Assembly: GCA_002704825.1 (NCBI GenBank) | Contig: PAIY01000049.1 | Location: 17,470 to 41,469 of the forward strand | Direction: 5' to 3' | Length of the DNA: 24,000 nucleotides | DNA from: Phycisphaeraceae bacterium | GTDB taxonomy: Bacteria; Planctomycetota; Phycisphaerae; Phycisphaerales; Phycisphaeraceae | Shown here: positions 1,924 through 17,962 of the stretch, piece after piece | Position numbering within the stretch: the first letter of the stretch is position 1 | Layout of the letters: the number at the start of each line of letters is the position of its first letter | Translations under genes and position numbers: made by a program | The notes under the pieces: generated by a model | What the model saw: only the letters and a program-made list of their open reading frames with translations | Told to the model about the DNA's origin: nothing | The model's database searches: none

Positions 1924-2625
1924 TTAAAAGTTGGGCGGAGAACGCTGGTCGTAATTCAGCCAATACTTGCCGGGTGTGTATGCATGCACGAGAGGCAGAA
2001 TGCTGGCGGAGACGGCGATGACCTGCCCATCAAGAAAGCTCATGTTCACGGCATTGTCGCTATGACGTGTTGCCAACGCACCGTCGGGCGCCAAAGAGAA
2101 TTGGCCATCCGCATTGATCGCAAGACGCACACCTTTATCCGAGTCCACCGTAAAGACTTTGCCCTTGGTGTAGCGATAATCGCGCATGCGATGTGCCGGC
2201 CAGATCGGTGCTTCGCCCCCTGCTTTGCTGCCAAGTCCGGTGCTGACAAGATACGAAGGTGAATTGGAAGTATTGCCTTGGGGTTTGGAAGGGCAGTTGA
2301 AAATCTCACTGCCCGGTTCGGTGGGATTGGGCATGCTGGACTTGTTGCCGACATACCGAGCCAACCGATCCATCGACGCCTTGGTGGCATACTGATTCCC
2401 GCTGGTGGGATTGTTATTGCTATAGCCATGTGGCAGATAATCGTTGTTCTCATCAATGTACATCACGTTCGCCAGGTAGAGTTGGCGTTGGTGATTCAGA
2501 CAGATCACGCTGCGTGCTGCTTTGCGTGCGCTACTCAGTGCCGGCAGCAGGATGGCGATGAGCAGACTGATGATGCTGATGACCACGAGTAATTCAATCA
2601 ATGTGAAAGCATGCTTCCTTGTCAT
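1924..2625 (-). CDS. Prepilin-type N-terminal cleavage/methylation domain protein (DUF1559 / H-X9-DG-like pseudopilin paralog)
   Basis: The N-terminus [30 protein letters not shown] is the canonical type IV pilin/pseudopilin leader plus hydrophobic helix. The C-terminal [16 protein letters not shown] resembles the H-X9-DG motif, with one extra residue. ATG at 2625 is preceded by AGGAG (2632-2636, reverse strand) at a 6-nt spacing. The track start at 2658 is a TTG extension. Confidence 0.9.
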
Positions 2626-2661
2626 GGGAAACTCCTGTGGTTTTAAGCTTATTTTCAAGGC

Positions 2662-3675: not shown

Positions 3676-4052
3676 GGTGTGGCTCCTGTGTCACGGACTA
3701 CTAAGTATCATATGTGACCTAGCTGTTTTTTCAACATTTCAATGCAGTTTTTTTTGTATCTCAAATCGCTGTGATTGATCGGAACGGCCGATTCGCCATC
3801 GTCTCTGAGCCTTACCCCCGCACAGATTCGGACAGATGCAAAAGAAAATCGGGGAATTTTTTCACATTGCCCAAGGTGCATCTCCGTCTGAGCAGGTTCT
3901 ACGTGCTGCGCCTGCCATTGAGCCCGGACGAGAATTTTTTTCAGCTTTCTGTGCTTGCCTGGCTCAAGTTTGGATGTCTGTTACGCCCAGCATCGCAACC
4001 AACGGGGTCTGCGGAAAAAAAGATGACACGCAAGCACAAGCGAGTTGAAGAA

Positions 4053-4820
4053 ATGAACAAACACCTCATCACCACCATGTTAAGTTGCCTCATCCTTGTT
4101 GGACTGAGCAACTTTGCCAAAGCCACCTACTACTACGACAACTGCAAGTACGATGGCAATGTCGTTGTCCGTGACTCAAGTGCCTCCTCAGGTTACTACC
4201 TCAGCGGCACCAAAGACACCGACCTGCAAGTCGAAAAGCAATACGGTGGCTACAACAACATCTCCACCGGCACACTGAACCTGGACATCCGTGAAAAGAC
4301 CAACCCCGGTTCGAACCCTGCCAGCTGGTACAACTTCCAGGCTTACTGCCTTGAAATGAATCAGACCGCCAAATTCGACACCAATCCCACCGACACCTAT
4401 GGTTGGACCTACCAGACCTCAAGCCTTGCTGGCTACAGCGGCATCAGCAGCTCGGATGTCACCTTCCTGGGTAAGCTCTGGGCCAACGCGTTTGAAACCT
4501 CCAAGACCGGCGAAGTCGAAGCTGCAGCCTTCCAGGCCTTGGTCTGGGAAACCGTGCAGGACAGCAAGATCGACCTGGACGATGACAACTTCGACCTTTA
4601 CCGCACCAACGGTTTCACCAAAGATGTCTACGCTCTTGCCAACGAATGGATCGACAACATCAACAACGGCATCTGGACCGACACCGTTGACCTGTATGTC
4701 CTCAAGGACCACTGCTCACAGGACTTCATCACCACGGTTCCCGAACCCACCAGCATGGCTCTTGCACTCGTCGGTGGCCTGATGCTTCTGGGTCGCGGCC
4801 GTCGTCAGCGTATCGCATAA
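4053..4820 (+). CDS. PEP-CTERM-anchored secreted surface protein with TED/TQXA-like Cys and Gln motifs
   Basis: The C-terminus VPEPTSMALALVGGLMLLGRGRRQRIA has the PEP motif, a TM helix and an Arg-rich tail, which together form an exosortase sorting signal. The signal peptide is MNKHLITTMLSCLILVGLSNFAKA. An alternative start lies at 4023 (MTRKHKRVEE...). The track start at 3771 (GTG) adds 94 implausible residues. Internal motifs are AYCLE (Cys codon 4347-4349) and AAFQALVWE (Gln codon 4533-4535). Confidence 0.88.
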   Translation: MNKHLITTMLSCLILVGLSNFAKATYYYDNCKYDGNVVVRDSSASSGYYLSGTKDTDLQVEKQYGGYNNISTGTLNLDIREKTNPGSNPASWYNFQAYCLEMNQTAKFDTNPTDTYGWTYQTSSLAGYSGISSSDVTFLGKLWANAFETSKTGEVEAAAFQALVWETVQDSKIDLDDDNFDLYRTNGFTKDVYALANEWIDNINNGIWTDTVDLYVLKDHCSQDFITTVPEPTSMALALVGGLMLLGRGRRQRIA

Positions 4821-4873
4821 CATCAACAACAAGTCAGTGACCACAGGGGGTCCGAATTCAACCCCCTTGTGCA

Positions 4874-4917
4874 ACACAGGCCCGGTCGCAGAGACGCACT
4901 GGGCCTGTGTTTTTTTG
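4874..4917 (+). terminator. Rho-independent terminator of the PEP-CTERM gene
   Basis: A 10-bp perfect stem pairs ACACAGGCCC (4874-4883) with GGGCCTGTGT (4901-4910). A T7 run follows. Confidence 0.8.
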
Positions 4918-4964
4918 TTTGAGGGAGTCGTGATTAGGGATTAGGGAGCAGGTATAAGACACTT

Positions 4965-7755: not shown

Positions 7756-8790
7756 ATGCCTTGCATGACACAAATCGGCAAGCTGACAATCGATGCGCCC
7801 TTCTTTCAGGCCGGACTGGCGGGGTATTCTGACACCGCGATGCGGCTCGTCGCCCGCAAGCATGGGTGCCCCCTTTGCGTCACCGAAGCGCTGCTGGATC
7901 AGTTCCTGATCAACGGCGGAAAAGCCTTGGTACAAGCGGAAATCGACCCGGATGACCATCCCATCGTCGGTCAATTAATGGGCTCAAACCCCGAGGATAT
8001 TGCCAAAGGCTGCAAGATTCTGGTCAAACTCGGCTATGACATCGTGGACATCAACCTGGCCTGCCCGGTGAAAAAAATCCGCAAAAAAGCGCGTGGCGGA
8101 CACCTGCTTTCCGAGCCGGATACGGCGATCGACATCCTCAAAGCGGTGAAACAGGCCGTCGGTGATGACGTGCCGCTGACGGTGAAATTGCGTCGCGGGA
8201 CGGATGATTCGGCGGTGGCAACATCCAATTTCCACAAACTTTTCCAGGCGGTGATCGATCAGGGCTTTGCCGGCGCGGTCGTGCATGGTCGGTCGGTGAC
8301 CCAGAAATACATCGGCCCATCACGATGGAGTTTCCTTAAATCACTGGTCGACGAGTACGGCCAAACCCCCAATTTCAATATCGGCGGGTCCGGCGACATC
8401 TGGGATGCACACGACATTTTCCGCATGATCGCCCACACCGGCGTCCGGCTCGTCTCCGTTGCCCGAGGCTGCATCGGTAACCCGTGGATCTTCCAGCAGG
8501 CGCGACTGCTTATGGACAACCCCGATGCTGACCCCACCTCGCTTGCCCCGACCATCGACCAGCAACGCCAGGTCCTGCTCGAACATTTCGAACTCTCCCA
8601 ACGCATCCACGGCGAACGCATGGCCTCCCTGATGATGCGCAAATTCGGCATCAAGTTCTCCGTCCATCACCCTGCCCCAATGGATGTCAAAGATGCCTTT
8701 ATCAAGGTCAAATGTTTAGACGATTGGCATGGCGTATTGGAGGCGCATTATGGTTTATCACAATCGCAGGATTGCGTTGCAGCATTGTGA
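7756..8790 (+). CDS. tRNA-dihydrouridine synthase (Dus family, FMN TIM-barrel)
   Basis: Motifs seen: AGLAGYSDTAMRLV, IVGQLMGSNPE, DIVDINLACPVKK (catalytic Cys region), LTVKLRRG, VHGRS and ARGCIGNPWIF. Confidence 0.9.
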   Translation: MPCMTQIGKLTIDAPFFQAGLAGYSDTAMRLVARKHGCPLCVTEALLDQFLINGGKALVQAEIDPDDHPIVGQLMGSNPEDIAKGCKILVKLGYDIVDINLACPVKKIRKKARGGHLLSEPDTAIDILKAVKQAVGDDVPLTVKLRRGTDDSAVATSNFHKLFQAVIDQGFAGAVVHGRSVTQKYIGPSRWSFLKSLVDEYGQTPNFNIGGSGDIWDAHDIFRMIAHTGVRLVSVARGCIGNPWIFQQARLLMDNPDADPTSLAPTIDQQRQVLLEHFELSQRIHGERMASLMMRKFGIKFSVHHPAPMDVKDAFIKVKCLDDWHGVLEAHYGLSQSQDCVAAL

Positions 8791-9014: not shown

Positions 9015-10703
9015 CTAGTTGTAGAAGTTGGTCGCTTCGGTTTCGACGACGTGGCGGGAAATCTGGTCGCTGGTCATCTTAACCATGAAACGAACGTCGC
9101 CGGATTGGACGGCACGGACGACCACCTTCCACGAGGCACGGGCCTTGGGTTTGAGACTTGGCAGTGCGTCGAAGACGACCTTGTTCTCCAATGGCGTGGC
9201 CATGGTGGCACCGGCGGAGGAGACGTATTGCATGGAGTTTTCGAGCGTACATTCGATGCGAATGTTCGTGCCTTCCGCTGAGCCCTGATTGGTGACGGTG
9301 ACCATATACGTCACGTTTTCACCGACTTCGATCGGGTCTTCGATGTCGACAACTTCAAGCAGGATGGCAGGGATGCCTTCGATGCGTGTGGTCGCTGAAG
9401 CATTGACACTGGGGGCACAGTCTGCCACGGCGGTGGCGGTGTTGGTCAACTCGCCAATCTGGTTGGGGACGATTTCCAGTGAGAGTTGACGTGATTCGCC
9501 GCCGGGGATTTCGGGGATCACCCAGAGGACTTCGTTGGTTTGTTGATTGAGTTGGCCACCACTGCTGGCGCCGGAGACTTTCACGCTGCTGGGCACACGA
9601 TCCACCACGCGGACATTCTTGGCCGGGACGGTGGACTTGTTGGTGACGGTGATATCGTATTTGAGTTTGCGGCCGACGAGTTGTTTTTCCTTGGCCTTCT
9701 TGGTGATGGCCAGGATCGGTTGCTGCACGGTGAACTTGCTGCTGGCATCGGAGGTCTGACCGTCAGTGCTCCTTGCCGTGGAAGTCACAGTAAAGTCCGA
9801 CGGAGATGCGGCTTTGAGTTGCACGGGGACCTGGGCACATTTGCCAGCGGGGATATCACCAACATTGGCAGCGACGGCGGTCTGCCCATCCATGGTGGTG
9901 ACACCCTGGGGCAGTTGTGCAAAGACGCGGACACCACGTGCCGTACCGGTGCCTTCGTTACACACTGTCAACTGCAACGGCAACGGATCACAGATCAGAT
10001 TCACCGGCGGGATCGTCGAGCTGAGTTTAAGCTTGGGTTCTGCAACTCGGATCGCCCAGCAGCCGGTAACATCGTGGGTCACGGTGACACAAGAAACGAT
10101 CTGCTGAGCCTTGGGATCGGCGACCTGGCCGTTGATCTGAATCTCACGGGTACTGCCTGGCGCGACATCACCTAACGCCCATTGCTTACCGTCCTTGGCA
10201 TTGGATGCCTGGGGGATGGAGCTGATGAGTTTGAAGGTGGCCGGCTGGGTTTCCTTGACGATGACATTGCGCATCGCTTCCTGCGTGGGATTGATCACAC
10301 GGATGACATAGCTGAAAGGCTGATTGGGTCGGACTTCCACGGGGGCATGCTTTTCGATGATGAGCGTGCCGGAGGAACCCTGGGGATACACGCGTTTACC
10401 GACCGCCAGGGTTTGGCGTGGTGCCGCCTGGTTGACGGGCTGCATCCCGTTGTAGGGTTGCTGACCCGCCTGGGCCTGATATTGCGCTTGTTGCTGCACC
10501 TGACCGGGAGTCTGGGTCTGGTACTGCTGCTGCCCCGCCTGATTGGGGGAATAGGTATTGGGGTAGCTTTGCTGGTTCTGTTGGTAGGTCTGCGGCTGTT
10601 GCTGTTGCTGCAAGTCTTGCTGCGCCGAAGCTGGCGTCCCGATTGCGGTGACACACAACAAGGCCAAAACGGTGAGCGATAGGACCAATCGCTTGATCAT
10701 CAT
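9015..10703 (-). CDS. Secreted Gln-rich protein with about four DUF11 ('conserved repeat domain', OmcB-like) repeats
   Basis: The signal peptide is MMIKRLVLSLTVLALLCVTAIGTPASA/QQ. It is followed by an approximately 65-aa Q/P/Y-rich tract. Four repeats then carry the DUF11 signature: YVIRVINPTQEAMRNVIV, LQLTVCNEGTGTARGVRV, YDITVTNKSTVPAKNVRVVD and YMVTVTNQGSAEGTNIRI. The start at 10703 has GGAGA 5 nt upstream; ATG at 10715 is the alternative. Confidence 0.85.
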   Translation of the reverse strand: MMIKRLVLSLTVLALLCVTAIGTPASAQQDLQQQQQPQTYQQNQQSYPNTYSPNQAGQQQYQTQTPGQVQQQAQYQAQAGQQPYNGMQPVNQAAPRQTLAVGKRVYPQGSSGTLIIEKHAPVEVRPNQPFSYVIRVINPTQEAMRNVIVKETQPATFKLISSIPQASNAKDGKQWALGDVAPGSTREIQINGQVADPKAQQIVSCVTVTHDVTGCWAIRVAEPKLKLSSTIPPVNLICDPLPLQLTVCNEGTGTARGVRVFAQLPQGVTTMDGQTAVAANVGDIPAGKCAQVPVQLKAASPSDFTVTSTARSTDGQTSDASSKFTVQQPILAITKKAKEKQLVGRKLKYDITVTNKSTVPAKNVRVVDRVPSSVKVSGASSGGQLNQQTNEVLWVIPEIPGGESRQLSLEIVPNQIGELTNTATAVADCAPSVNASATTRIEGIPAILLEVVDIEDPIEVGENVTYMVTVTNQGSAEGTNIRIECTLENSMQYVSSAGATMATPLENKVVFDALPSLKPKARASWKVVVRAVQSGDVRFMVKMTSDQISRHVVETEATNFYN

Positions 10704-10993
10704 CTGGTTCTCCATTCCCAGGTCTCTGTCAATATTGGAGATGTCTCTCCATGAGGTAGGCGGTCTACGGGGTTGTTATCGGTCATTTTACCCAAGTTTC
10801 GCCAAAACGGCCTGTGGGGCGTCATCAGGTGGACACCCCAGCAGCAAAACCTGCGATATCTTGGCCTTGTAGCCTGTTTTTTTCCAGATTGGCTATTTGC
10901 TCGTTGTAGATGTTGTTACAATCCGTATCATCGGGGTATCCAATGGGATAAACCGTGTTCATGAATGACGAAAAGTGTAACGGGAGAGTTGCG

Positions 10994-17119: not shown

Positions 17120-17218
17120 GTGCGGTGTCTGTTAGACGTCTGAACATTGCGTCCGTTTTGTTGCTCCAAAGAGCTGACATGACGCAAGCACGACAATCCT
17201 CCATCCAGGAGATTGAAC

Positions 17219-17962
17219 ATGACACACATGACACGTTCACAAAGCGCCTTCACACTCATTGAATTGCTGGTGGTCATCTCGATTATTTCCATTCTCGTTG
17301 CCATTCTCCTGCCGGCCTTGGCCAAGGCACGATCCAGTGCGCGCATGGCACAGTGTCTTTCAAACATTCGCTCAAGCGCCCTGGTGATCACCGTCTACTC
17401 CAACGACTACAACAGTTGGACCATGAAAATGTATAACGCTGATTGGGATCCTTTCTCGGGAACCACTTCAGACCGATACTGGCCTGCACCACTGGGCATG
17501 GGCAACTACCTGCCTTATTTCCCGGAAAAAGGCAACGGCTACGGCACGGTCTGCCCCGATGCCATTACCAGTAAAGCACGCATCGGCACTTTCAATGACA
17601 TCCTCAACAGTTACACCATGCGCGGTGTCGACAAGATGAACACCACAACCAAAATCGCCACCAACTTCCGACTCGGTGGCTATATCACCAACAACGGTAA
17701 TGCCACAGGCGGCTACGATCCGGAACAACTCGAAGAAGGTCCCAGTGATTCAGTATGGCTATTTGATGGCTGTGCGCATGTCGGCAGCGGTGTCTATGCG
17801 TTGCATGCAGGTGTGGACAAGGGCAACTTCGGACCCTGGCATGATGGTCGGGGCAGTGTCGTGTTCTTTGATGGTCATGCTACGGTCGCGCTGCGCCGAT
17901 TCGATTATCTTTACAAGTCGCGCGATCCCAACGGCGTGAACAGTGTCATCATGGAAGACTGA
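17219..17962 (+). CDS. Prepilin-type N-terminal cleavage/methylation domain protein with an H-X9-DG motif (DUF1559-like pseudopilin paralog)
   Basis: [38 protein letters not shown] is a pilin-type leader and helix. The C-terminal WHDGRGSVVFFDGHATV is an exact H-X9-DG. AGGAG (17207-17211) lies 7 nt upstream of ATG 17219. The track start at 17213 is TTG. Confidence 0.9.
   Translation: MTHMTRSQSAFTLIELLVVISIISILVAILLPALAKARSSARMAQCLSNIRSSALVITVYSNDYNSWTMKMYNADWDPFSGTTSDRYWPAPLGMGNYLPYFPEKGNGYGTVCPDAITSKARIGTFNDILNSYTMRGVDKMNTTTKIATNFRLGGYITNNGNATGGYDPEQLEEGPSDSVWLFDGCAHVGSGVYALHAGVDKGNFGPWHDGRGSVVFFDGHATVALRRFDYLYKSRDPNGVNSVIMED

What the first reader, a model, noticed from the sequence alone, without database searches (positions are those of the whole stretch)
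4053..4820. PEP-CTERM (exosortase-sorted) surface protein carrying motifs that resemble the internal Cys-Gln thioester domain of Gram-positive adhesins
The mature protein contains FQAYCLEMNQ (Cys codon 4347-4349). About 62 residues later it contains EVEAAAFQALVWETV (Gln codon 4533-4535). Thioester domains (TED / TQXA-domain proteins such as S. pyogenes Cpa and SfbI) are defined by a [YF]-C-[LIV]-[DENQ] Cys motif and a downstream T-Q-x-[A]-[LIV]-W Gln motif. Those two residues form a reactive intramolecular thioester used for covalent attachment to targets. In the known examples the domain sits on LPXTG/sortase-anchored proteins. Here the same two-motif pattern sits on a protein with an unambiguous PEP-CTERM tail (VPEPTS, a TM helix, then RGRRQR). 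That would be the exosortase analogue of a covalent 'chemical harpoon' adhesin in a Gram-negative-type envelope, encoded divergently from a sugar-regulated locus. One caveat is that the residue before the Gln is Phe rather than Thr. I also cannot run a profile search.
Basis: partly seen in the sequence, partly recalled or inferred. Interest (0 to 1): 0.7.

Follow-up and report, generated by a model that had tools for sequence, protein, structure and literature searches.

The report
Thioester adhesin domain on PEP-CTERM protein

Summary
The ORF (4053-4820, +, 255 aa), both motifs and the PEP-CTERM tail are at the stated coordinates.

The protein belongs to a large family: about 1,900 clusters at 50% identity. 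Nearly all members are 220-260 aa, built as signal peptide, a ~195-aa domain and an exosortase-type tail. Sources name them only "hypothetical" or "PEP-CTERM sorting domain-containing protein".

Four lines tie the domain to Gram-positive thioester domains (TEDs):
- Weak, full-length Pfam TED matches: 15.2 bits here (cut-off 22); 31 of 144 relatives at E<=0.01, best 8.8e-7.
- The only PDB sequence hit of the trimmed family profile is SaTIE-TED.
- hhalign against class II TEDs gives 86-88% probability, E about 3-5e-6.
- In a pLDDT 94.9 model, the two TED structures 5A0N and 6FX6 are the only credible Foldseek hits.

Gln161 (AAAFQALVWE) matches the helical TQxxΦW motif, which does not form the bond. 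The predicted partner of Cys99 is Gln223 (SQDFI), six residues before VPEP. It aligns with SaTIE Gln467. All six relatives that lack the Cys also lack Gln223 but keep Gln161.

Verdict: new variant of a known kind; interest about 0.68.

The parts
4053..4820 (+). ORF of 255 aa plus stop codon: signal peptide, TED-like domain, PEP-CTERM tail. An alternative ATG at 4023 gives a 265-aa form.
4053..4124 (+). Predicted Sec signal peptide, aa 1-24, with an AKA|T cleavage site. This is read from the sequence; no predictor was run.
   Evidence: modelled as helix 4-21
4152..4736 (+). TED-like domain, aa 34-228. Six β-strands are followed by a three-helix bundle and a terminal β-hairpin.
   Evidence: AF2 model with pLDDT 94.9 and pTM 0.92; Foldseek top hits 5A0N and 6FX6; hhalign
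4344..4355 (+). Y98-C99-L100-E101, matching the [YFL]CΦζ motif at the end of strand 93-99. Cys99 (4347-4349) is the predicted thioester Cys.
4521..4550 (+). AAAFQALVWE, aa 157-166, on helix 154-169. It is the equivalent of the TED TQxxΦW motif, with Phe in place of Thr. Gln161 and Trp165 are predicted to hydrogen-bond the Cys backbone, not to form the bond.
4716..4730 (+). S222-Q223-D224-F225-I226, matching the ΦQζΦΦ-type motif at the start of the last strand. Gln223 (4719-4721) is the predicted thioester-forming and target-linking Gln.
4737..4817 (+). PEP-CTERM sorting signal: V229-P-E-P, a hydrophobic helix (aa 234-246), then RGRRQR.
4873..4918 (+). Intrinsic-terminator-like hairpin followed by a U-run. 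The gene appears to be monocistronic.
   Evidence: -28.5 kcal/mol, z-score -3.6

Best explanation
The gene encodes a minimal, stalk-less thioester domain (TED) that is displayed through the exosortase/PEP-CTERM pathway. The proposed sequence of events is as follows. The protein is exported by Sec and its signal peptide is cut after Ala24 (inferred). The ~200-aa domain folds into the TED β-barrel plus three-helix bundle (shown at the level of a confident model and fold match). The Cys99 thiol attacks the Gln223 side-chain amide, releasing ammonia and forming a buried Cys-Gln thioester (inferred by homology, conservation and co-loss; not demonstrated). Gln161 and Trp165 on helix α2 brace the Cys backbone, as the TQxxΦW motif does in known TEDs (inferred). 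The C-terminal helix holds the precursor in the inner membrane until an exosortase cleaves at VPEP and passes the domain to the cell surface or matrix (inferred from what is known of PEP-CTERM proteins). A primary amine on a target then attacks the thioester and becomes amide-linked to Gln223, tethering the cell covalently (inferred). The target is unknown. Candidates are protein lysines or amino groups on algal or particle surfaces, or on the cell's own exopolymer.
For: Family: an exhaustive profile search found 1,881 cluster representatives at E<=1e-3 and 268 at E<=1e-10, nearly all 220-260 aa. Conservation in 144 diverse members: Cys99 138, Gln161 142, Trp165 142, Gln223 137. Homology to TED: Pfam TED aligns over profile positions 2-101 of 102 on aa 97-204; it matches 11 of 12 close homologues and 31 of 144 wider members, best E 8.8e-7. 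The only PDB chain hit by the tail-less family profile is SaTIE-TED, with FCIE and (T/F)QxxIWE in register. hhalign against six Gram-positive TEDs gives Prob 86%, E 5e-6. With the class II insert removed it gives Prob 88%, E 3e-6 over 141 columns, pairing Cys99 with SaTIE Cys296 and Gln223 with SaTIE Gln467, the mapped bond-forming residues. Fold: AF2 pLDDT 94.9, pTM 0.92. Foldseek against PDB returns 5A0N (prob 0.97, TM 0.45) and 6FX6 (prob 0.93, TM 0.54) as the top two; every other hit has prob <=0.05. The order of secondary-structure elements matches the published TED topology, with Cys at the end of a strand, the Q/W motif on the second helix and Gln at the last strand. Coupling: all 6 members lacking Cys99 also lack Gln223 but keep Gln161; this happened at least twice independently. 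The 2 members lacking Gln161 keep both Cys99 and Gln223. The Cys-Gln spacing of 124 residues is close to that of class I CpTIE, 129. No His is conserved, which argues against a Cys-His enzyme.
Confidence: 0.65

Rival explanations
1. The domain is a true TED with a Cys99-Gln223 thioester, but it is not an adhesin for foreign surfaces. It cross-links the cell's own exopolymer or matrix (floc or biofilm cement), or the bond mainly stabilises the fold.
For: PEP-CTERM proteins are linked to exopolysaccharide and floc formation; that is background knowledge, reflected in the NCBIfam floc_PepA family name. There is no stalk: Gln223 lies six residues from VPEP, so the domain would sit close to whatever exosortase attaches it to. 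Relatives occur in Rhodocyclaceae and Desulfobacillus MAGs.
Against: Nothing ties this family to an EPS locus; neighbourhoods are unrelated. The floc_PepA matches are well below cut-off (23.2 bits against 80 here) and mostly come from the tail. In known TEDs the thioester is a reactive warhead, not a stabiliser.
Confidence: 0.2
2. The domain has a TED-like fold but forms no thioester. The conserved Cys, Gln and Trp serve something else, such as an acyl-enzyme catalytic Cys, ligand binding or a redox role.
For: The TED profile score is sub-threshold and the fold match moderate. A clade of five relatives has lost Cys99 and Gln223 yet keeps the rest of the domain, so the fold can persist without the pair.
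Against: Joint conservation and joint loss of exactly the two residues that align with the TED bonding pair. There is no conserved His, or other conserved group I could identify as a catalytic partner. There is no similarity to any enzyme family in Pfam, NCBIfam or PDB.
Confidence: 0.1
3. One reading: the thioester forms between Cys99 and Gln161 of the FQALVW motif.
For: Both residues are nearly invariant. In TED structures the motif's Gln lies next to the thioester.
Against: In solved TEDs the Gln of this motif hydrogen-bonds the Cys backbone, does not form the bond, and is dispensable by mutagenesis. Gln161 sits on a helix that aligns with the TQ motif of SaTIE. Members that lost Cys99 keep Gln161 but lose Gln223, and members that lost Gln161 keep Cys99 and Gln223.
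Confidence: 0.03
4. The motifs resemble TED motifs by chance, in an unrelated PEP-CTERM protein.
For: The motifs are short, and single-sequence profile E-values are weak.
Against: Profile-profile, PDB-sequence and fold searches each return TEDs as the top or only credible match.
Confidence: 0.02

Closest known systems
Class I thioester domains of Gram-positive TIE adhesins (PnTIE-TED 5A0N, CpTIE-TED 5A0G, SfbI-TED 5A0L; Walden et al. 2015)
   Same: Single lobe of about 200 aa, made of a β-barrel plus a three-helix bundle. The Cys lies in a [YFL]CΦζ strand motif, the Q/W motif on the middle helix and the Gln at the last strand. There is no β-sandwich insert. The Cys-Gln spacing is 124, against 129 to 153 in class I. 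5A0N is the best Foldseek hit.
   Different: Sequence identity is about 14%. A full α0 helix between strand D and α1 appears to be missing; only 3 helical residues are modelled. The family motif is AAAFQxxΦWE, with invariant Phe for Thr. There are no isopeptide or ester stalk domains and no LPXTG signal; instead a PEP-CTERM tail starts 6 residues after the Gln. The hosts are diderm bacteria (Planctomycetota, Pseudomonadota).
Class II thioester domains (SaTIE-TED 6FX6, BaTIE 6FWV, EfmTIE86; Miller et al. 2018)
   Same: This is the only PDB chain found by sequence profile and the highest TM-score (0.54). Like class II, the domain lacks a long α0 helix. hhalign gives 86-88% probability.
   Different: It lacks the defining ~75-residue β-sandwich insert and slipknot. 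It also lacks the CnaB stalk and sortase anchoring.
PEP-CTERM / exosortase cargo proteins (TIGR02595, PF07589; for example flocculation protein PepA, NF033554)
   Same: N-terminal signal peptide, and a C-terminal VPEP, helix and Arg cluster. The protein is small and its gene stands alone away from the exosortase gene.
   Different: No named PEP-CTERM family in NCBIfam covers the passenger domain. All family-specific hits are far below cut-off, and for this protein and most relatives checked they extend little beyond the tail. The passenger here has a recognisable reactive-domain homology, which is unusual for this cargo class.
Complement C3 / α2-macroglobulin thioester proteins
   Same: They use the same Cys-Gln thioester chemistry for covalent capture of nucleophiles (background knowledge; PMC4462647 is listed).
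   Different: The fold is unrelated and the motif is a contiguous CGEQ. This is convergent chemistry, not homology.

Membership tests
Bacterial thioester domain (TED; Pfam PF08341; Walden 2015, Miller 2018) | Bond-forming Cys in a [YFL]CΦζ motif within a β-strand | tested here: met
   Y98-C99-L100-E101 lies at the end of modelled strand 93-99. Cys is kept in 138 of 144 relatives, with Y or F before it in 140 of 144. It aligns with FCIE of SaTIE-TED.
Bacterial thioester domain (TED; Pfam PF08341; Walden 2015, Miller 2018) | Bond-forming Gln in a weak ΦQζΦΦ motif in the C-terminal β-strand | tested here: met
   S-Q223-D-F-I immediately precedes strand 225-227. Gln is kept in 137 of 144 relatives. 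It aligns with the mapped Gln467 of SaTIE once the class II insert is removed. It is lost together with Cys99 in 6 of 6 cases. The first position is Ser, not hydrophobic, but the motif is described as weak.
Bacterial thioester domain (TED; Pfam PF08341; Walden 2015, Miller 2018) | Helical TQxxΦW motif next to the thioester (common, not universal) | tested here: met
   F160-Q161-A-L-V164-W165 lies on helix 154-169. Gln and Trp are each kept in 142 of 144. Thr is replaced by Phe, which is invariant in this family. The papers note that no residue of this motif is fully conserved.
Bacterial thioester domain (TED; Pfam PF08341; Walden 2015, Miller 2018) | Score above Pfam's gathering threshold for PF08341 | tested here: not met
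   This protein scores 15.2 bits against a cut-off of 22, E 0.03. At family level, 31 of 144 relatives match at E<=0.01, best 8.8e-7. By extrapolation from the listed scores that best hit is about 30 bits. This is my estimate; the bit score was not printed.
Bacterial thioester domain (TED; Pfam PF08341; Walden 2015, Miller 2018) | TED fold: β-barrel plus three-helix bundle | tested here: met
Bacterial thioester domain (TED; Pfam PF08341; Walden 2015, Miller 2018) | Cys Sγ and Gln Cδ within bonding distance in the structure | not testable with these tools
   Structure prediction returns no coordinates.
Bacterial thioester domain (TED; Pfam PF08341; Walden 2015, Miller 2018) | A thioester actually forms (-17 Da, abolished by Cys-to-Ala; reacts with methylamine) | not testable with these tools
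   This needs an experiment.
TQXA domain (NCBIfam TIGR03934) | Match to the TIGR03934 profile | tested here: not met
   TIGR03934 is not listed at E<=10 for this protein. It is not among the 20 families matched by the 144 relatives at E<=0.01.
PEP-CTERM sorting domain (PF07589 / TIGR02595) | Extreme C-terminal PEP motif, hydrophobic helix and basic cluster | tested here: met
   The tail reads VPEPTSMALALVGGLMLLGRGRRQRIA. P230 and P232 are kept in 141 and 139 of 144 relatives, and Glu at position 231 in only 69.
PEP-CTERM sorting domain (PF07589 / TIGR02595) | Profile score above the curated cut-off | tested here: inconclusive
   Pfam gives 18.5 bits against 20.7, and TIGR02595 gives 14.5 against 16, both just below cut-off. 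All 12 close homologues match, best E 4.7e-5, and 67 of 144 wider relatives match, best 1.2e-9. Other relatives carry VPAPG-, VPTPG- or VPLPA-type tails.
PEP-CTERM sorting domain (PF07589 / TIGR02595) | An exosortase is encoded in the same genome | not testable with these tools
   Only about 30 kb of this genome was visible (the window plus L001), and no exosortase lies in it.
Flocculation-associated PEP-CTERM protein PepA (NF033554) | Score above the equivalog cut-off of 80 bits over the full length | tested here: not met
   The score is 23.2 bits, covering only aa 184-252. In the relatives checked, the hits mostly cover the tail and all are below cut-off.

The most novel reading that the evidence does not exclude
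A third, minimal class of thioester domains exists and is widespread in diderm bacteria, at least in Planctomycetota and in Beta- and Gammaproteobacteria. About 1,900 sequence clusters share one architecture, in which the reactive Gln sits about six residues before an exosortase-type sorting motif (PEP-CTERM, VPLPA, VPxPG and other variants). If the thioester forms, covalent 'harpoon' adhesion is not a Gram-positive speciality. PEP-CTERM cargo, whose biochemical function has stayed largely obscure, would also gain its first passenger domain with a defined and easily assayed chemistry.
Probability: 0.55. Interest if true: 0.78.

Novelty: new variant of a known kind. Interest (0 to 1): 0.68.

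Why it matters
TEDs are described in the literature I could search as a Gram-positive feature. PSI-BLAST hits were "exclusively in Gram-positive bacteria" (Walden 2015). [quoted passage not shown] No paper in the searchable library mentions both a thioester domain and PEP-CTERM.

Three things would follow from a large diderm family with the same bonding pair:
- The known range of covalent adhesion chemistry would extend to environmental Gram-negative bacteria that colonise particles, algae and flocs.
- The exosortase field would gain a cargo whose activity can be read out by mass spectrometry or amine probes. That gives a handle on where and how PEP-CTERM proteins are displayed.
- The family would offer a compact TED of about 200 aa, with no stalk or insert, as a possible protein-ligation tool.

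Some relatives probably already pass Pfam's TED threshold. The domain call may therefore exist silently in databases, even though the sources I saw name these proteins only as hypothetical or PEP-CTERM proteins.

Tried and rejected
- **PrsK/PrsR/PrsT regulation.** A histidine kinase, a sigma-54 response regulator and an 834-aa TPR protein lie 5-10 kb upstream in the parent contig. NCBIfam shows generic AtoC/NtrC-type matches. PEP_resp_reg scores 370 bits against a cut-off of 502.6 (on a truncated query), and the TPR protein matches no PEP-CTERM-system family. Dropped.
- **Sigma-54 promoter upstream.** The only candidate (3960-3975) has 3 mismatches, and such matches occur at the chance rate in the window.
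- **Link to the divergent LacI-type regulator or the sugar genes.** The neighbourhoods of distant relatives are unrelated. The arrangement is kept only in close Phycisphaerae relatives.
- **Nitrospiraceae members.** Loci L014-L016 from the genome scan are spurious antisense matches inside a HemN-like gene.
- **Sequence searches of PDB.** The single protein and the close-homologue profile found no TED. The untrimmed wide profile was dominated by matches to the signal peptide and tail.
- **Foldseek with the full-length model.** No TED appeared among the 50 hits listed. Only the trimmed domain recovered TEDs.
- **hhalign in global mode.** It produced a meaningless alignment.
- **Wide-profile protein search.** The search with the untrimmed alignment was swamped by tail words and returned only 18 proteins.
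- **Membership in a named PEP-CTERM family.** floc_PepA, XDP1, FxDxF and the others were all far below cut-off.

Full report
**1. The observation**

- Cys99 is at codon 4347-4349 within FQAYCLEMNQ.
- Gln161 is at codon 4533-4535 within EVEAAAFQALVWETV.
- The C-terminus is VPEPTS, a hydrophobic helix, then RGRRQR.
- The N-terminus looks like a Sec signal peptide ending in AKA|T.
- A strong hairpin with a U-run follows the stop codon at 4873-4918 (-28.5 kcal/mol, z -3.6), so the gene looks monocistronic.
- The PEP-CTERM profiles hit just below their cut-offs: PF07589 18.5 bits against 20.7, and TIGR02595 14.5 against 16. All 12 close homologues match PF07589.

**2. The family**

The word-indexed search found only 12 close relatives, from Phycisphaerae MAGs and marine metagenomes. 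In their alignment (A1), Cys99 and Gln161 are invariant.

An exhaustive HMMER search with that alignment found 1,881 cluster representatives at E<=1e-3 and 268 at E<=1e-10. Nearly all are 220-260 aa and match end to end. This is therefore a large family with one architecture: signal peptide, a ~195-aa domain, and a C-terminal sorting tail.

The tails vary. Glu occupies position 231 (VPEP) in 69 of 144 members. Others carry VPAPG, VPTPG or VPLPA-type tails, and a few carry dockerin-like ends. One relative of 1,130 aa places the domain in front of a Kelch propeller.

The sources name the members "hypothetical protein" or "PEP-CTERM sorting domain-containing protein". Named hosts are Phycisphaerae, Planctomycetota, Variovorax, Aquisalimonadaceae, Rhodocyclaceae and Candidatus Desulfobacillus. 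The precomputed Pfam column shows PF07589 or nothing. An Isosphaeraceae locus and a Phycisphaeraceae locus with two tandem copies were confirmed with a local profile search. Three "Nitrospiraceae" loci were spurious.

**3. Conservation**

In 144 members sharing 22-67% identity with the window protein, the near-invariant positions are:

| Position | Kept in (of 144) |
|---|---|
| Cys99 | 138 |
| Leu142 | 138 |
| Ala159 | 139 |
| Phe160 | 139 |
| Gln161 | 142 |
| Trp165 | 142 |
| Glu166 | 133 |
| Ala196 | 132 |
| Gln223 | 137 |
| Asp224 | 120 |

The tail prolines are also near-invariant. No His is conserved.

**4. Is it a TED?**

- *Pfam.* PF08341 aligns nearly its whole length (profile positions 2-101 of 102) to aa 97-204, but scores only 15.2 bits, E 0.03. 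It matches 11 of 12 close homologues, best E 1.6e-4. It matches 31 of 144 wider members at E<=0.01, best 8.8e-7. TIGR03934 does not hit.
- *PDB by sequence.* A profile of the domain alone (A3, 43 sequences) hits exactly one chain at E<=10. That chain is SaTIE-TED (6FX6). The alignment places FCIE on FCIE and AFQxxVWE on ATQMLIWE.
- *Profile against profile.* I collected six Gram-positive TED sequences from enterococcal, Vagococcus and clostridial plasmids. One of them is identical to SaTIE over the 66-aa query. hhalign of A3 against their alignment gives Prob 86%, E 5.1e-6.
- *Fold.* The full-length AF2 model (pLDDT 90.2) gave no meaningful Foldseek hit. The trimmed domain model (pLDDT 94.9, pTM 0.92) returned PnTIE-TED 5A0N first (E 6.5e-3, prob 0.97, TM 0.45/0.42). 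SaTIE-TED 6FX6 came second (E 0.068, prob 0.93, TM 0.54/0.46). Every other hit had prob <=0.05 and TM <0.2.
- *Topology.* The order of elements is six strands, three long helices, then a terminal hairpin. Cys99 ends a strand, Gln161 and Trp165 lie on the second helix, and Gln223 heads the last strand. This is the published TED topology.

TEDs are notoriously divergent. Pairwise identity can be as low as 12%, and my SaTIE-based profile found only itself in PDB. Weak scores are therefore expected. I regard homology as well supported, at about 0.85-0.9.

**5. Which Gln?**

The primary papers say otherwise.
- The thioester joins the Cys of [YFL]CΦζ to the Gln of a weak ΦQζΦΦ motif in the last β-strand.
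- The TQxxΦW Gln and Trp lie on helix α2 and hydrogen-bond the Cys backbone.
- Neither is needed for bond formation (Walden 2015; Miller 2018).

By that rule Gln161 is the bracing residue, and Gln223 (S-Q-D-F-I) is the candidate partner. Three results support this.

First, the Cys-Gln spacing is 124 residues. In class I structures it is 129 (CpTIE), 152 (SfbI) and 153 (PnTIE).

Second, I removed the class II β-sandwich insert from the TED alignment and reran hhalign. The alignment then extends over 141 columns (Prob 88%, E 3.1e-6). It pairs Gln223 with the Gln that lies 171 residues after the SaTIE Cys, which is the Cys296/Gln467 pair of Miller 2018.

Third, there is a co-loss pattern.
- All six family members without Cys99 also lack Gln223 (R, S, C, G, A, A) but keep Gln161.
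- The two members without Gln161 keep both Cys99 and Gln223.
- In a neighbour-joining tree five of the six form one exclusive clade and the sixth lies elsewhere, so there were at least two independent co-losses.
- The naive Fisher p of 9e-11 overstates the evidence, because the sequences are related.

**6. What could not be tested**

**7. Mechanism proposed**

The steps are:
1. Sec export.
2. Folding, with spontaneous formation of the Cys99-Gln223 thioester.
3. Exosortase processing at VPEP, six residues after the reactive Gln, so the domain is displayed without any stalk.
4. Attack by a target amine, which leaves an amide link to Gln223.

The fold and the residue assignments rest on computation. 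The rest is inference from TED and PEP-CTERM biology. The target is unknown. The domain may serve foreign-surface adhesion or self-matrix cross-linking, and I cannot separate the two.

**8. Context**

The window holds:
- a divergent LacI-family regulator;
- glucose-6-phosphate isomerase;
- a dihydrouridine synthase;
- a secreted protein with four DUF11/CLIPPER domains;
- a LysM protein;
- glycoside hydrolases;
- two prepilin-type proteins.

Nothing in this context recurs around distant family members. The upstream two-component system and TPR genes are not the PEP-CTERM regulators, and no sigma-54 promoter is evident.

**9. Novelty**

The domain type and its chemistry are known. What I found undescribed is a compact form with no stalk or insert, in diderm bacteria, joined directly to exosortase-type signals.

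The searched literature describes TEDs as Gram-positive only. No paper combines the thioester domain with PEP-CTERM. NCBIfam has no model for the passenger domain.

Some members probably exceed Pfam's TED threshold, so a silent database annotation may exist.

I rate this a new variant of a known kind. Interest is 0.68. Confidence in the full mechanism is 0.65.

Noticed in passing
Family members P0059, P0061, P0064, P0070, P0078 (one NJ clade) and P0057: These relatives have lost both Cys99 and Gln223 but keep the AAAFQxxΦWE helix and the rest of the domain. The five that form one clade carry a Cys near alignment position 221 instead (…ECGGS, VCCGT, PCFGP, DCSAP, GCTAP). The window protein also has a Cys at 221, which is not conserved (11 of 144). 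The function of these 'disarmed' variants is unknown.
   Followed up: partly
window 9015-10715 (-): A 566-aa secreted protein with a Gln-rich N-terminal region and four DUF11/CLIPPER domains. A 2025 paper (PMC12617251) showed this domain family carries intramolecular isopeptide bonds. The protein has no PEP-CTERM tail. It lies about 4 kb from the TED-like gene on the other strand. In Gram-positive TIE proteins, thioester and isopeptide domains share one polypeptide; whether the proximity here means anything is unknown.
   Followed up: partly
L017 6867-7541 and 7545-8453 (uncultured Phycisphaeraceae contig): Two tandem paralogues of the TED-like family lie 3 bases apart.
   Followed up: no
P0072 (1,130 aa, JGI metagenome) and L019 9036-11036: One relative fuses the TED-like domain to a Kelch β-propeller and a dockerin/EF-hand-like C-terminus. 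In an Aquisalimonadaceae contig, the family member sits next to a glyoxal/galactose-oxidase-like Kelch protein. This may be coincidence.
   Followed up: no
L014, L015, L016 around 8001-8141: The genome scan's 'Nitrospiraceae' and 'uncultured bacterium' matches are false. The AFQALVWE pattern occurs in an antisense ORF inside a HemN-like radical-SAM gene.
   Followed up: yes
L001 1-5091 (parent contig, left of the window): A histidine kinase, a sigma-54-dependent response regulator and an 834-aa TPR protein resemble the PrsK/PrsR/PrsT layout. They score as generic AtoS/AtoC/NtrC-type and YbgF-like TPR proteins, not as the PEP-CTERM regulators.
   Followed up: yes
window 1924-2658 (-) and 17213-17962 (+): Two proteins carry prepilin-type N-terminal methylation motifs, one of them next to the LacI-type regulator.
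   Followed up: no
PDB chain 8s6c_A, residues 499-527: A solved 'lactoperoxidase' chain ends in …QDNVFLIPEPATLGLLMFGAAFLRKRR, a PEP-CTERM tail preceded by a QD as in this family. It surfaced only because of the tail.
   Followed up: no
window 4023-4052: An in-frame ATG 30 bases upstream gives the 265-aa form stored as P0001. All other homologues align from the Met at 4053, so 4053 is the likelier start.
   Followed up: partly
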